Shown in pieces: positions 1 to 54,008 of a stretch of 64,000 nt of DNA; position 1 is the stretch's first letter, and each line of letters opens with the position of its first letter. The stretch comes from Octopus vulgaris (Eukaryota). A program made the position numbers and the translations under genes. The notes under the pieces were generated by a model. That model saw only the letters and a list, made by a program, of their open reading frames with translations, searched no databases and was not told where the DNA came from. The stretch spans positions 14,508,001 to 14,572,000 of the forward strand of contig OX597817.1 of NCBI GenBank assembly GCA_951406725.2. Reading direction: 5' to 3'.

Positions 1-40
<40 letters not shown>

Positions 41-275
41 GTATATATATATATATCTGTCTGTCTGTCTATCTATCTATATACTAAGTAATTAAGGGTT
101 TAGCAACGAATTGCCTCACCAACACACCGAATTTAGAAATAGCAGTCAAAGAGATATAGCTATTCCTTCTACTAAAAGGGGGATCTCAGTAAAAACACAG
201 CACCTGAAAGGCAAACACAGACAGGTAAGAAAGAAAGAATGAAATGACGGCAATCTATCATACAATTTTAAGTTA

Positions 276-367
276 CCTACGGACGTACGTTTCGAAATCA
301 AGTTTTAGGAAAGCATAAGAATTAGAAAATTCTACCTTACCCAAACTTCTTTTCTCATCGGCGCAGG
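276..367 (-). ncRNA. Second, inverted copy of the same hammerhead ribozyme
   Basis: Reverse complement of 778-869. Confidence 0.75.
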
Positions 368-777
368 ATACTACAATTATGAATAATTGTATATTAAATT
401 TTGAGATACTAGAAGGCATTATCTCAACTCAGTGTCAGAGCGAGCCAAAGCATGACCAGAACCACGAAATTCAAAGTATGAATGAAAGTTTGTGTCACCA
501 GCCCCCTTCCACCCGCGTGTAGCCAAGACAAAATGCTGTGGTCATTTACTGGGATAAAATATGGTTATCAGTAATAATAAAGGGTGAAATTAATTAATTT
601 GGAATAATTATCAATTACACCAAGTAGATTTCGGCATGTAAAAGCCCCATTCGAGGAAAATTTTCATACTTTGAATTTCGTGGTACTGGTCATGCTTTGG
701 CTCGCTCTGACACTGAGTTGAGATAATGCCTTCTAGTATCTCAAAATTTAATATACAATTATTCATAATTGTAGTAT

Positions 778-869
778 CCTGCGCCGATGAGAAAAGAAGT
801 TTGGGTAAGGTAGAATTTTCTAATTCTTATGCTTTCCTAAAACTTGATTTCGAAACGTACGTCCGTAGG
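778..869 (+). ncRNA. Hammerhead ribozyme, type I, with U4C core variant and extended stem II
   Basis: Stem I CCTGCG/CGTAGG. Core CCGATGA (784-790). Stem II GAAA...TTTC encloses an imperfect hairpin of about 60 nt. GAAA at 852-855. Stem III C-GTAC-G lies within the palindrome ACGTACGT. Cleavage triplet GTC ends at 863. Confidence 0.75.
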
Positions 870-1219
870 TAACTTAAAATTGTATGATAGATTGCCGTCA
901 TTTCATTCTTTCTTTCTTACCTGTCTGTGTTTGCCTTTCAGGTGCTGTGTTTTTACTGAGATCCCCCTTTTAGTAGAAGGAATAGCTATATCTCTTTGAC
1001 TGCTATTTCTAAATTCGGTGGGTTGGTGAGGCAATTCGTTGCTAAACCCTTAATTACTTAGTATTACTTAAATTTTCCTCGAATGGGGCTTTTACATGCC
1101 GAAATCTACTTGGTGTAATTGATAATTATTCCAAATTAATTAATTTCACCCTTTATTATTACTGATAACCATATTTTATCCCAGTAAATGACCACAGCAT
1201 TTTGTCTTTCCTAAAACTT

Positions 1220-1223
<4 letters not shown>

Positions 1224-1281
<58 letters not shown>

Positions 1282-1286
1282 GTCTG

Positions 1287-1345
<59 letters not shown>

Positions 1346-1374
1346 GTCTATCTATCTATCTATCTATCTGTCTG

Positions 1375-1407
<33 letters not shown>

Positions 1408-1458
1408 ACATACATACATACATACATACATACATACATACATACATACATACATACA

Positions 1459-1488
<30 letters not shown>
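1224..1488. repeat. Compound microsatellite (TA)n(TATC)n(TACA)n
   Basis: Read directly. Confidence 0.95.
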
Positions 1489-1489
<1 letters not shown>

Positions 1490-1762: not shown

Positions 1763-2535
1763 CAGGGTGATCCGAAAATCTTGTTGCCCCCTACATATTG
1801 TTTATTATTGTCATTATTATCATTATTTTTTTGTTTTAGTAATATAATATGTGCCCCAGCCCACTATGATACCACTGTCAAGGAGTACCTAAATAAAGTT
1901 TTTAGGGATAGATGGATAGGGCGAGGATCATGATAACTTCCAGCACCTGTCGATTGGCCTCCCTGAAGTTTAGACTTCACATCTTGCGTTAATGCTCTTT
2001 GGGATATTATCAAGGGGAGAGTTTCACATTAACGATACCAGAATACCTATTTCTTTATTACCCACAAGGGGCTAAACACAGAGGGGACAAACAAGGACAG
2101 ACATAGGTATTAAGTCGATTACATCGGCCCCAGTGCGTAACTGGTACTTAATTTATCGACCCCGAAAGGATGAAAGGCAAAGTCGACCTCGGCGGAATTC
2201 GAACTCACAACGTAACGCAGACGAAATACCGCTAAGCATTTCGCCCGGCGTGCTAACGTTTCTGCCAGAATACCCATTAGTTGAAGGACCCTGTTCGGAG
2301 AGCCTTTGCAACAACCACCAAAGCACAGCTTCGAAAAATATTACACAGGACATGGCGTCACATCATTTGTGCCACGAAAACGCTGGCTTTCATATAGACC
2401 TTCTCGATGTGTGACAGCGTCAATGAAAGTGAGTAAACGAAATCCAGTTCGTACTTTGGATTATTGCATTACTTGTTCTTCTAATGTTCTCATTACTTTT
2501 TGGTAGAGGGGTAACAAGACTTTCGGACCACCCTG
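1763..2535 (+). mobile_element. Non-autonomous Tc1/mariner-superfamily element
   Basis: 28-bp TIRs CAGGGTGATCCGAAAATCTTGTTGCCCC / GGGGTAACAAGACTTTCGGACCACCCTG, followed by TA. An internal remnant WPP*SLDFTSC..LW resembles the WPPRSPDLTP transposase motif. Confidence 0.8.
2046..2268 (-). mobile_element. tRNA-derived SINE family B (Nin/Deu-like central domain)
   Basis: Matches other copies in the window. CCAGAATACC occurs at both ends as a likely target-site duplication. Confidence 0.85.
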
Positions 2536-3388: not shown

Positions 3389-3622
3389 AGGCGGCGAGCT
3401 GGCTGAAACGTTAGCACGCCGGGCGAAATGCGTAGCCGTATTTCGTCTGTCGTTACGTTCTGAGTTCAAATTCCGCCGAGGTCGACTTTGCCTTTCATCC
3501 TTTCGGGGTCGATAAATTAAGTAGCATTTACGCACTGAGGTCGATGTAATCGACTTAATCCGTTTGTCTGTCCTTGTTTTTCCCTTCTATGTTTAGCCCC
3601 TTGTAGGTAGTAAAGAAATAGA
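3389..3622 (+). mobile_element. SINE family B, full length
   Basis: GGCGGCGAGCTGG head, B-box-like GAGTTCAAATTCC, core GTCGACTTTGCCTTTCATCCTTTCGGGGTCGATAAA, tail TAAAGAAATAG. Confidence 0.88.
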
Positions 3623-3719
3623 TAGATATGTAGGTAGGTAGGAAGGTAGGTAGGTAGGTAGGTAGGTAGGTAGGTATGTATGTAGGTAGATAGGTAGGTA
3701 GGTAGGTAGGTAGATAGAC

Positions 3720-8429: not shown

Positions 8430-9080
8430 AAATGAGACCATAACCTTGTGGCCTATGCCAGGGGTGTAACCAGTCCACTTATGCGTGCCATTCCTTCATT
8501 GGACACTAAACTCTGCTTGCGAAGACCTGTTGGGGCAAGTGAAATCGAAATCAAACTTGATTGCAAAGACCTGTTGAGGCAAGCGAAATCAAAATTGAAA
8601 TCAAACTCGGTGACTTGCATCCGTTGATAGTGGAGCGCTAAGAGTACCATATGAGTGAGATCGTTGCCAGAGCAACAAGCTGGCCTTTGTGGCGATGGCA
8701 TGTTAAGCACACCATTCGAGCATGATCATTACCTGCATCGCCTTACTAGCACTTGTGTTGGTGGCACGTGAAAAAACATTTGAGCGAGGTCGTTGCCAGT
8801 GCCGCTAGACTGGCTCCTGTTCAGGTAGCACATAAAAAGCACCATTTGAGCATGGCCGTTGCCAGTACCAACTAACTGGCCCTCATGCCGGTGGCATGTA
8901 AAAGCACTCACTACATTCTCGGAGTGGTTGGCGTTAGGAAAGGCATCCAGTTGTAGAAACTCAGCCAGATCAGATTGGAGTCTGGAGCAGCCATCTCGTT
9001 CGCCAGACCTCAATCAAATCGTCCAACCCATGCTAGCATAGAAAGTGGACATTAAACGATGATGATAATGATGATGATGA
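8430..9080 (+). mobile_element. RTE LINE 3' UTR fragment with internal subrepeats and (GAT)n tail
   Basis: Collinear with 44152-44740, which is contiguous with an RTE reverse transcriptase remnant. Confidence 0.8.
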
Positions 9081-9354: not shown

Positions 9355-10041
9355 GCACTTGTAAAGACCTGTTGAATCAAGTGAAGTAATTGTTGTGGCC
9401 AACGACAGTACCTATTTCTTTATTACCCACAAGGGGCTAAACACAGAGGGGACAAACAAGGACAGACAAACGGATTAAGTCGATGATATCGACTCCAGTG
9501 CGTAACTGGTACTTAATTTATCGACCCCGAAAGGATGAAAGGCAAAGTCGACCTCAGCGGAATTTGAACTCAGAACGCAGCGGCAGACGAAATACCACAA
9601 AGCATTTCACCCGGCGTGCTAACAATTCTGCCAGCTCGCCACCGCCTGACTGGTACCAGTGGCATGTAAAAAGCACATTTCGAGCATGGTCAATATCAGT
9701 GCTAGCTGACTGGTTCCATGTCAGTGGCATGTAAAAAGCACTATTCAAGCGTGATTGTTGCCAGTGCCACCTTGACTGACTCCTGTGCTGGTGACATGTA
9801 AAAAGCACCATTCAAGCATGGTTCGATGCCAGTACCGCCTGACTGGCCCTCGTGCTGGTGGCACATAAAAAGCATCCACCACTCTCTCAGAATGGTTCAC
9901 ATTAGGAAGAGCATCCAGCTGTAGAAACATTGCCAGATCGGATTGGAGGTTGGTACAGCCTTCTGGCTTGCCAGTCCTCAGTCAAACTGTCCAACCCATG
10001 CTAGCATGGAAAGCGGATGTTAAACAACGATGATGATGATG
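9355..10041 (+). mobile_element. RTE 3' UTR fragment containing a nested antisense SINE B (9409-9645)
   Basis: Same 3' UTR motifs. SINE B is recognisable inside it. Confidence 0.8.
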
Positions 10042-18404: not shown

Positions 18405-19275
18405 TTTATTCATATACAAGAAGGTTGTTGACAGTAAATTCAAAGTTTTGGTCAACTAAGCCGTCATCAGACTGTGAAGCATTAGCCTTGCCTTTATACA
18501 GTCTTTGTTGAATTGAAATCATCTTTGGGTGTGTGGGTTTGAGAGGGGTAGTAATGAGGTTTTTCTGGTTGGTTGTTATGGGAGGTGTTTTGGAAAAATT
18601 TTAATTGATTATATTTGGGATCATATTATGTTTTAGAATGTATTCATGAATGTAGAACTTTGTAAACAAGCTTCTAGGTGTTTCTCTTTTGTTAAGCAAG
18701 CACAAGGTGTGATAGTATTTTTGTTGCTTTTGGTATTATCGCATTTAATTCTTTTGCTTTGACTGGCCTCCGTGCTGGTGGCATGTAACAAACACCATCC
18801 GATCGTGGCCGTGCCAGCCTCGCCTGGCCTCTGTGCTGGTGGCATATAAAAAACACCATCCGAGCCTGGCCATTCGCCAGCCTCGTCGAGCACCTGTGTC
18901 CGTGGTACATAAAAAAAACACCATCTGAGCGTGGCCATTCGCCAGCCTCGTCTGGCACCTGTGCCGGTGGCACATAAAAAGCACCCACTACACTCACGGA
19001 GTGGTTGGCGTTAGGAAGGGCATCCAGCTGTAGAAACACTGCCAGATCTGACTGGCCTGGTGCAGCCTTTGGGCTTCCCAGACCCCAGTTGAACCGTCCA
19101 ACCCATGCTAGCATGGAAAGCGGACGTTAAACGATGATGATGATGATGATGAATGTAAAGGCCAAAGTTGCAAAGTCCAATATTTAAGGCCTTAGTAATT
19201 TGGTGTGTTAATTTTATTTCCCAAAAGGATGTAGACAGGTGGTAAGTTGTCCATTGTTCTCTAAGCACCATCCTC
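18405..19275 (-). mobile_element. Penelope-like element 3' remnant (end of the GIY-YIG region plus a decayed hammerhead at 18431-18475), split by an RTE tail
   Basis: HLSTSFWEIK...ALNIGLCNFGL remnant, and ACAGT-CTGATGA-CGG...CC-AAAAC...TT-ACTGT. Confidence 0.5.
18760..19152 (+). mobile_element. RTE 3' UTR fragment
   Basis: Subrepeats, GGAGTGGTTGGCGTTAGGAAGGGCATCCAGCTG and (GAT)n tail. Confidence 0.85.
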
Positions 19276-19384
19276 TGTGCTCAGCTGATATTTATTTTAA
19301 TGAATCCTGAAAGTATGAAAAGCAAAGTCAACCTCAGTAAAATTTGAACTCAGGATGTAAAGTTGGACAAAATGTCACTAAGCA

Positions 19385-19832
19385 TTTTGTCCACTATACC
19401 AACAATTTTGTCTACTGTACTAACAATTTTGTCCACTGTACCAACAATTTTGTCCACTGTACCAACAATTTTGTCCACTGTACTAACAATTTTGTCCACT
19501 GTACCAACAATTTTGTCCACCGTACCAACAATTTTGTCCACCGTACTATCAATTTTGTCCACTGTACCAACAATTTTGTCCACCGTACTAACAATTTTGT
19601 CCACCGTACCAACAATTTTGTCCACTGTACCAACAATTTTGTCCACTGTACCAACAATTTTGTCCACTGTACTAACAATTTTGTCCACTGTACCAACAAT
19701 TTTGTCCACTGTACCAACAATTTTGTCCACTGTACTAACAATTTTGTCCACTGTACTAACAATTTTGTCCACTGTACCAACAATTTTGTCCACTGTACCA
19801 ACAATTTTGTCCACTGTACCAACAATTTTGTC
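19385..19832. repeat. 21-bp minisatellite TTTTGTCCACTGTACCAACAA, about 21 copies, inside an old antisense SINE B
   Basis: Read directly. SINE sequence continues on both sides. Confidence 0.95.
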
Positions 19833-48681: not shown

Positions 48682-49020
48682 TCATCATCATCATTTAGCG
48701 TCCGCTTTCCATGCTAGCATGGGTTGGACGGTTTAACTGGGGTCTGTGAAGCCAGAAGGCTGCATCAGGCCCAGTCTGATCTGGCAGTGTTTCTACGGCT
48801 GGATGCCCTTCCTAACGCCAACCACTCCGCGAGTGTAGTGGGTGCTTTTTACGAGCTGGCAAATGGCCACAAACGGATGGTGCTTTTACGTACCACCGGC
48901 ACGGGGGCCAGGCGAGGCTGGCAACGGACACAAACGGATGGTGCTTTTACGTGCCACCGGCACGGAGGCCGTTCGGGGCGGCGCTGGCAAGGGCCACGAA
49001 CGGATGGTGCTTTTTACGCC
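48682..49020 (-). mobile_element. RTE 3' UTR fragment
   Basis: Family motifs. Confidence 0.8.
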
Positions 49021-53568: not shown

Positions 53569-54008
53569 CATCATCATCATTTAAAGTCCGTTCTCCATGC
53601 TAGCATGGGTTGGACGGTTCGACCGGGGATCTGGGAAGCCAGAAGGCTGCACCAGGCTCCGGTCTTATCTGGCAATGATTCTACAGCTGGATGCCCTTCC
53701 TAACGCCAACCACTCCGTGAGTGTTGTGGGTGCTTTTTACGTGCCACCTGCACTGGTGCCAGGCGAGGCTGGCATCAGCCACGGTCGGATTGGTGCATTT
53801 TACGTGCCACCAGCACGGAAGCCAGTCGAGGCGGCACTGGCTTCGGCCACGATTCGGATGGTGCATTTTACGTGCCACTGACACGGAAGCCAGTCGAGGC
53901 GGCGCTGGCATCGGCCACGATTCGGATAGCGCTTTTTACGTATCTCCAGTCCAGGGATCCTGGCATCTGTCGGGTGCCAGTCATAGGATTGGTTCAATTT
54001 CGATTCCG
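53569..54008 (-). mobile_element. RTE 3' UTR fragment
   Basis: Family motifs and four subrepeats. Confidence 0.85.

What the first reader, a model, noticed from the sequence alone, without database searches (positions are those of the whole stretch)
81..1208. Interleaved inverted and circularly permuted A-s-B-A'-B' element: footprint of a tandem or circular ribozyme-bearing RNA
Seen: the right half, read on the minus strand, is B-A joined by a 5-nt linker. The left half reads A-s-B, a permutation of the same unit of about 590 nt, and the copies are nearly identical. A short patch after B' (TTTCCTAAAACTT, about 1207-1219) re-copies 833-845, which suggests a template jump. No ORF is present. 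Inference: a non-coding retrozyme or Penelope pseudo-LTR was reverse-transcribed from a multimeric or circular RNA with an inversion, and inserted recently into a microsatellite. A transcript could form two alternative long duplexes.
Basis: partly seen in the sequence, partly recalled or inferred. Interest (0 to 1): 0.72.

Follow-up and report, generated by a model that had tools for sequence, protein, structure and literature searches.

The report
Hammerhead retrozyme pasted from both ends
This is one young copy of a dispersed, non-coding 588-base repeat with a predicted self-cutting hammerhead RNA fold; its mirror-image copies end at two fixed points inside TA microsatellites, as do protein-coding Penelope-type jumping genes in the same genome, so such an enzyme likely copied one RNA onto both sides of a DNA break.

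Summary
Observation confirmed: arms 81-482/663-1064 (2 mismatches) and 525-663/1070-1208 (exact), 5-nt linker, 14-nt patch, no ORF. The unit is 588 nt and has over 100 near-identical dispersed copies, many tandem. It carries a type I hammerhead fold (778-869; predicted cut after 863) with a palindromic stem III and a U4C core; Rfam misses it.

The 'interleaved permutation' is two back-to-back, 5'-truncated arms pointing outward. Of 81 insertions, 45 have this shape. In 32 of 34 scoreable ones, one arm ends at site A and the other at site B about 100 nt further on (p=3e-8). Autonomous Penelope-like families here follow the same rule (16 of 16). Arms and tandem units of one insertion are more alike than copies from other loci.

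Best reading: a non-autonomous Penelope-type retrozyme, copied from one longer-than-unit RNA by priming at both ends of a break in (TA)n. Circle versus linear multimer, self-cleavage, expression and the partner enzyme are unshown. The class is known, and this scan already noted the same pattern in other families of this genome. This window's right end is atypical (template-jump patch).

The parts
1..80 (.). Left target microsatellite (CTAT)n-(TA)n-(CTGT)n-(CTAT)n. 42-80 recurs at 1265-1299 with one CTGT fewer: a possible target-site duplication of about 35-40 nt, not provable in a microsatellite
81..663 (-). Left arm: 583 of the 588-nt unit (s6-s588; s = position on the hammerhead strand), 5'-truncated at 663, 3' end at 81 = fixed end site A
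276..367 (-). Hammerhead fold, left copy; predicted cut between 282 and 281
   Evidence: mirror of 778-869
483..524 (-). 'Spacer' s (s145-s186): ordinary unit sequence, present only in the left arm
663..663 (.). Head-to-head junction of the two 5'-truncated arms (s6 / s187), 1-nt overlap
663..1208 (+). Right arm: s187-s588, then s1-s144 (546 nt); runs through the hammerhead site and on into the next unit
778..869 (+). Type I hammerhead fold: stem I 778-783/864-869, core CCGAUGA 784-790 (U4C), long stem II 791-851, GAAA 852-855, palindromic stem III ACGUACGU 855-862, predicted cut after GUC 861-863
   Evidence: sequence
1051..1073 (+). End site A (s575-s9), here internal to the right arm; includes the 5-nt 'linker' 1065-1069
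1157..1174 (+). End site B (s93-s110): the usual end of the second arm in other copies; not used in this copy
1206..1219 (+). 14-nt patch identical to 832-845 (s356-s369), joined through a CTT overlap; likely the first-primed piece before a template jump
   Evidence: the jump is inferred
1223..1489 (.). Right target microsatellite (TA)n-(CTGT)n-(CTAT)n-(TACA)n

Best explanation
The element is one young insertion of a dispersed non-coding 588-nt repeat with a predicted type I hammerhead, made of two 5'-truncated arms that point outward into a microsatellite, and it was likely written by a Penelope-like retrotransposon enzyme priming from both ends of one DNA break on a single longer-than-unit RNA. 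Steps: (1) A tandem copy is transcribed into multimeric RNA, which may self-cleave and close into a 588-nt circle (inferred from known retrozymes; untested). (2) A Penelope RT/GIY-YIG protein, probably a dimer, binds near the conserved A-B segment and cuts both strands of a TA-rich repeat (inferred from Frangieh 2024 and from the flanks). (3) One DNA end is extended from site A and the other from site B about 100 nt downstream (the A+B pairing of ends is shown; the priming is inferred). (4) Both cDNAs run through the hammerhead site, stop at variable points and are joined head to head with little or no overlap (end pattern shown). In this copy the right side appears to have started at s369, copied 14 nt and jumped to s144 (inferred).
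For: Family: 144 matches from 40 scored of 2125 candidates, full-length ones 97-100% identical (one 93%), period 588; 148 exact copies of a 26-nt hammerhead word, 0 for the reversed control. Shape: of 81 insertions in 79 loci, 45 are divergent two-armed, 35 one-orientation, 1 complex and none a simple convergent pair. 32 of 34 scoreable two-armed insertions pair A with B (2 A+A, 0 B+B; expected share 0.50; p=3e-8). 118 of 125 3' ends abut TA-rich DNA. Both end sites reappear as junctions to (TA)n in contigs of other runs (loose ends at 1064 and 1167). Autonomous RT elements in this genome show the same rule: 9 of 9 two-armed loci (753-aa family, ends about 50 nt apart) and 7 of 7 (727-aa family, about 69 nt apart), counted by eye. 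One template: arm-to-arm difference 119/15170, unit-to-unit 85/15181, between loci 2.2% (pairs not independent); in 19 of 20 loci the arms are closer than the median of other loci; 13 locus-private substitutions are shared by all overlapping copies, in 9 loci. The window's two arms share the rare variants s191T and s465G. Hammerhead: 6 of 12 pairs change on both sides across related families, 0 of 500 shuffles as high; the hammerhead strand folds at z -3.8 as a circle against -1.0 for the other strand (25 shuffles). Literature: partial tandems, inverted 5'-truncated copy, tail at one end, (TA)n targets (PMC8557442); two internal start sites, both strands cut and extended, predicted dimer, uncut RNA as main template (PMC11167929); animal retrozymes as non-autonomous PLE derivatives (bioRxiv 2026.07.22.740005).
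Against: No autonomous partner with a related pLTR was found among loci of three young and one older PLE-like family; similarity of the end sites to two of them was not significant (best p=0.06 of 8 tests). 11 of 45 two-armed insertions, this one included, have at least one end outside A or B. In L038, L056 and L071 the retrozyme arm is joined head to head to a different repeat, so both arms need not come from one RNA. L004's array mixes three unit haplotypes, which a single monomer circle would not give. The core has U4C, reported to lower cleavage in vitro (PMC3088659). The covariation rests on few lineages, on a structure taken from the window copy, and the first pair of stem II is broken in 2 of 11 rows. 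The 79 loci were picked by likeness to this copy, from contigs C1-C11 for the pattern set, so they favour young copies.
Confidence: 0.72

Rival explanations
1. Same enzyme, but each side of the break is primed on its own RNA molecule; the arms look alike only because few source loci are active or because of later conversion between arms.
For: Head-to-head joints with other repeats: L071 (5'-truncated 727-aa PLE-like copy, 3-nt overlap), L038 (another hammerhead-bearing repeat), L056 (SINE-like). For most of the 20 loci tested, some copy elsewhere is as close as the partner arm.
Against: Independent RNAs do not by themselves explain 32 A+B of 34. Locus-private variants are shared by both arms, e.g. 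three in L030. The mixed joints can also arise by a 5' junction that deletes target DNA into an older neighbour.
Confidence: 0.12
2. The unit is only the pseudo-LTR of an autonomous Penelope element whose ORF-bearing copies I did not find; these loci are its truncated ends.
For: pLTR-like anatomy (hammerhead about 200-300 nt upstream of the 3' ends; a possible GT-AG intron just after it). Only 100 of 148 pattern matches were listed, and the PLE families sampled are few among more than 20,000 candidates.
Against: Head-to-tail arrays of up to 3.7 whole units contain no ORF. No PLE ORF follows a sense arm in 79 loci or in 30 loci of the older family. Related families are also ORF-free tandems.
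Confidence: 0.07
3. A single-armed copy was duplicated and inverted at the DNA level (fold-back or replication template switch), with no second priming.
For: Some loci have perfect hairpin centres (L004 171/171, L050 230/230, L059 258/258, L081 268/268), and arms are nearly identical.
Against: In the window each arm holds sequence the other lacks (s145-186 left only; s1-5 and the unit joint right only). In L083 the arms do not overlap at all. Fold-back would not end at a second fixed site.
Confidence: 0.06
4. Assembly chimera of repeat copies.
For: The junctions at 663 and 1208-1219 could not be confirmed independently.
Against: 45 insertions share the architecture, each with its own junction; arms carry shared rare and separate private variants; autonomous elements show the same rule.
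Confidence: 0.02

Closest known systems
Metazoan non-LTR retrozymes (Cervera and de la Pena 2020, PMC7229834; Li, Clavereau and Pollet 2026, bioRxiv 10.64898/2026.07.22.740005)
   Same: Non-coding tandem unit with one type I hammerhead, low GC, dispersed monomers and multimers, no ORF, co-occurring with PLEs; 588 nt lies within the 51-972 bp range of Li et al.
   Different: Longer than the 170-400 nt RNAs of Cervera et al.; U4C core and a stem II of about 60 nt. The passages and parts I read do not describe mirror-image arms or paired fixed ends ('inverted' 0 times in PMC7229834). Cleavage and circles are untested here.
Insertions of EN+ Penelope-like elements (Neptune, Hydra, Naiad, Penelope/Poseidon; Craig et al. 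2021, PMC8557442; Frangieh et al. 2024, PMC11167929)
   Same: Partial tandems, inverted 5'-truncated copy, tail at one end only, (TA)n targets, two start sites, copies that run through the hammerhead site.
   Different: No ORF; the tail is about 100 nt rather than 30-40; no sequence link to a given autonomous family was found.
PLE minimal hammerheads (Cervera and de la Pena 2014, PMC4209133)
   Same: Type I, very short stem III with a palindromic loop suited to a dimer fold, enlarged stem II.
   Different: Stem II is much longer; U4C is not among the variants in the part I read.
L1 twin priming (recalled, no call)
   Same: Two primers from one target site give an inverted 5' part.
   Different: L1 starts at a poly(A) end plus a variable internal site with little overlap; here both sites are fixed and internal, and the arms overlap by hundreds of bases.

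Membership tests
Non-LTR retrozyme | Tandem repeat with a type I hammerhead in each unit (at least two consecutive units) | tested here: met
   Four consecutive hammerhead words 588 nt apart at C4:155901051-155902815. This window itself has one per arm.
Non-LTR retrozyme | Non-coding, low GC, no LTR retroelement ORF | tested here: met
   Longest frame 71 aa; GC 0.34 over 1-2000.
Non-LTR retrozyme | Hammerhead stems and core conserved | tested here: met
   97.7% of cells paired, 6 of 12 pairs with double changes. Core departs from consensus at U4C in 62 of 70 loci. No Rfam match.
Non-LTR retrozyme | Self-cleavage of the transcript | not testable with these tools
   Needs in vitro transcription. 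5' ends are not enriched at the cut site: 4 of 125 against 3.8 expected.
Non-LTR retrozyme | Expressed as linear and circular RNA | not testable with these tools
   Only contigs were available, which cannot show strand, ends or circles; tandem DNA already holds every junction.
Non-LTR retrozyme | Target-site duplication longer than 4 bp when present | tested here: inconclusive
   42-80 resembles 1265-1299 but lies in a microsatellite.
Penelope-like element (insertion signature) | Partial tandems, inverted 5'-truncated copy, tail at one end, (TA)n target | tested here: met
Penelope-like element (autonomous) | RT plus GIY-YIG ORF | tested here: not met
   None in the element or in sense behind it in 79 loci.
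Non-autonomous derivative of a particular PLE | Homology to the pLTR of an autonomous family | tested here: inconclusive
   None in the families sampled; most PLE families of the genome were not sampled.

The most novel reading that the evidence does not exclude
A Penelope enzyme dimer grips one RNA ring between two fixed start sites and rolls round it from both ends of a cut microsatellite at once, which is the general origin of PLE 'tails' and inverted ends. The youngest, expanding subfamily has weakened its own ribozyme (U4C, and G-U in stem I) because uncut multimers or stable rings are better templates.
Probability: 0.25. Interest if true: 0.68.

Novelty: new member of a known kind. Interest (0 to 1): 0.4.

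Why it matters
Which enzyme moves animal retrozymes, and how Penelope elements integrate, are open questions in the papers read. A short, very young, ORF-free family with a strict A+B end rule, shared with autonomous elements in the same genome, gives a countable footprint and a ready test substrate. The class, and the tail at one end, are already in print, and this scan has noted the same rule in other families of this genome, so this family adds weight rather than a new kind.

Tried and rejected
Rfam found no hammerhead; the motif was read by eye. No RNA holder listed. Contigs of four runs only guessed to be RNA cover the unit but cannot show expression, cleavage or splicing; no joint matched the possible intron s393-466. 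In four other runs no listed contig bridged the window's own junctions; a hole there proves nothing. Partner search: no homology of the unit to the 753-aa, 727-aa or 784-aa families, to an older relative, or to PLE fragments beside retrozyme loci; end-site likeness not significant. An 18-nt retrozyme word inside a PLE-like pLTR at L072 is unique in the genome, so it is a one-off patch and not a shared motif. A cleaved linear monomer as template is rejected: 117 of 213 unit segments span the cut site and 5' ends do not pile up there. A function for the alternative duplexes has no support. A Pfam family that I recalled for PLE thumb domains is not in the library. The scan's look-up by sequence returned nothing.

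Full report
Observation. The anatomy is as described. A/A' (81-482, 663-1064) differ at 2 of 402 positions, B/B' (525-663, 1070-1208) are exact, and 1206-1219 repeats 832-845. Joining 81-663 to the reverse complement of 1065-1069 gives 588 nt, the period of tandem copies elsewhere in the genome. There is no ORF over 71 aa. I number the unit s1-s588 on the hammerhead strand. The left arm is s6-s588 reading leftward; the right arm is s187-s588-s144 reading rightward. Both point outward and meet head to head at 663. Together they need 727 contiguous bases of a 588-base unit, so the template was longer than one unit or circular.

Ribozyme. At 778-869 lies a type I hammerhead fold: stem I of 6 bp, core CCGAUGA, a long stem II, GAAA, the palindrome ACGUACGU as stem III, and GUC at 861-863. 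Rfam does not detect it. Across 11 chosen copies from this family and its relatives, 97.7% of cells pair and 6 of 12 pairs change on both sides. These are few independent events, the structure came from the window copy, and 2 rows break the first pair of stem II. The core has C at position 4 in 62 loci and U in 8, mostly more diverged, loci; the older related family has U. U4C is reported to lower activity in vitro while still allowing viroid infectivity (PMC3088659, passages). A short palindromic stem III suits the dimer fold described for PLE hammerheads (PMC4209133, part 1 of 4). Cleavage is untested.

Family. The genome (2.8 Gb; probably an octopus by recalled repeat types and the scan's notes, not tested) holds 148 exact copies of a 26-nt hammerhead word and 2125 first-look candidates. 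I analysed 79 loci: 21 of the 30 (9 overlapping windows dropped) and 58 of 60 stretches fetched around the first 100 pattern matches (2 dropped as copies of an 8-kb segmental repeat). Matches under 84% identity and groups under 150 nt were left out. Of 81 insertions, 45 are divergent two-armed, 35 one-orientation and 1 complex. The 3' ends cluster at site A (s575-s9) and site B (s93-s110). Among two-armed insertions 32 are A+B, 2 A+A, 0 B+B, and 11 have an end elsewhere (p=3e-8 on the 34 scoreable). 118 of 125 3' ends abut TA-rich DNA. 5' ends are scattered and not enriched at the cut site. The window copy is one of the 11 exceptions: its left end is A, its right end is s144 plus the 14-nt patch. 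Similar small patches occur at L025, L045, L059 and L067. Two related families exist, one about 80% identical with the same ends and one of 545 nt; the A-B segment looks well conserved among them by eye.

One template or two. Arms differ by 0.78%, tandem units by 0.56%, and different loci by 2.2% (pairs not independent). Per locus, 19 of 20 arm pairs are closer than the median of other loci. Of locus-private substitutions at sites covered twice or more, 13 are in all copies, 78 in one copy and 2 in some. L030 has three private changes in all four unit copies of both arms, and L051 has a roughly 20-nt deletion in all three units: both fit repeated copying of one unit, as on a ring. L004 mixes three haplotypes, which fits a linear or mixed multimer. 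Circle and linear multimer therefore both remain possible. Three loci join a retrozyme arm head to head to another repeat, which keeps a two-RNA route open.

The enzyme. Three young RT families with many near-identical copies lie in the genome: 753 aa (Pfam RVT_1), 727 aa (no Pfam hit; its C-terminus resembles GIY-YIG clusters) and 784 aa. I call the first and third Neptune-like and the second Hydra-like from recalled motifs; no tree was built. The first two end in (TA)n at two fixed sites about 50 and 69 nt apart, and every two-armed locus in which both ends were seen pairs a short with a long end (9 of 9 and 7 of 7, counted by eye). None shares detectable sequence with the unit, so the partner is unidentified.

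Comparison with print. Craig et al. describe partial tandems, an inverted 5'-truncated copy, a 30-40 bp tail often at one end only, and (TA)n targets (PMC8557442, passages). Frangieh et al. show two internal start sites that match the tail, cutting and extension of both strands, a predicted dimer, and uncut RNA as the main template (PMC11167929, parts 1-2 of 4). Cervera and de la Pena define animal non-LTR retrozymes and name PLEs as the likely movers (PMC7229834, passages). Li et al. link them to pLTRs; only 1 of 9 tested dimers cleaved (bioRxiv, parts 1-3 of 5). An octopus repeat annotation has no mention of ribozymes or retrozymes in its main text (PMC13282606, passages). Five searches showed no paper on this family or a count of paired ends. 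I opened no supplements, and repeat databases were not available, so the family may already be catalogued. The scan's own notes report the same pattern for 355-363 and 490-495 nt families of this genome; I had reached my reading before that look-up, and those notes are not independent support.

Verdict. A real, young, non-autonomous Penelope-type retrozyme insertion: a new member of a known kind. Shown: anatomy, family, hammerhead fold, end rule, shared template lineage. Inferred: PLE enzyme, double-ended priming, template jump. Untested: cleavage, expression, circle. Interest 0.4.

Noticed in passing
L085:273-2100 (G000:C10:83.738 Mb); also C1:71597092-71603639: A related 545-nt tandem family with a CUGAAGA hammerhead and the same stem III palindrome, 98-100% identical copies, inverted arms, arrays of up to 12 or more units.
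   Followed up: partly
L171-L200: An older relative, about 80% identical to the window unit, with a U4 core and the same A and B ends.
   Followed up: partly
L134:1-612: An unrelated tandem repeat of about 320 nt whose hammerhead also has the CCGAUGA (U4C) core.
   Followed up: no
L121-L140, L141-L170, L247-L276: Three very young PLE-like families with intact ORFs (753 aa preceded by a 367-aa ORF; 727 aa with a hammerhead in the pLTR; 784 aa). No canonical hammerhead was seen for the 753-aa family in a strict scan.
   Followed up: partly
L071:3393; L038:3368; L056:3343: Retrozyme arm joined head to head to a 5'-truncated 727-aa PLE-like copy, to another hammerhead-bearing repeat, and to a SINE-like repeat.
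   Followed up: partly
L072:3345-3368: An 18-nt retrozyme word replaces the 3' half of the hammerhead in a neighbouring PLE-like pLTR; unique in the genome and absent from the adjacent arm.
   Followed up: partly
window 869-942 (+), s393-s466: A possible GT-AG intron with a pyrimidine tract right after the hammerhead, like the 5' UTR intron of Penelope; retained in all copies examined except one partial deletion.
   Followed up: partly
G000:C8:79.05-79.08 Mb (L075-L077): The same retrozyme insertion recurs about every 8 kb (four pattern matches): a segmental tandem duplication.
   Followed up: no
window 2044-2217 and 3451-3624: Two inverted copies, 91% alike, of a SINE-like repeat (label recalled).
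   Followed up: no
window 8777-8907, 9657-9874, 18772-18985, 48855-49014, 53729-53941; 19384-19832: Dispersed short arrays of similar-looking 61-68 nt units, and a 21-nt array of 21 copies at 95% match.
   Followed up: no
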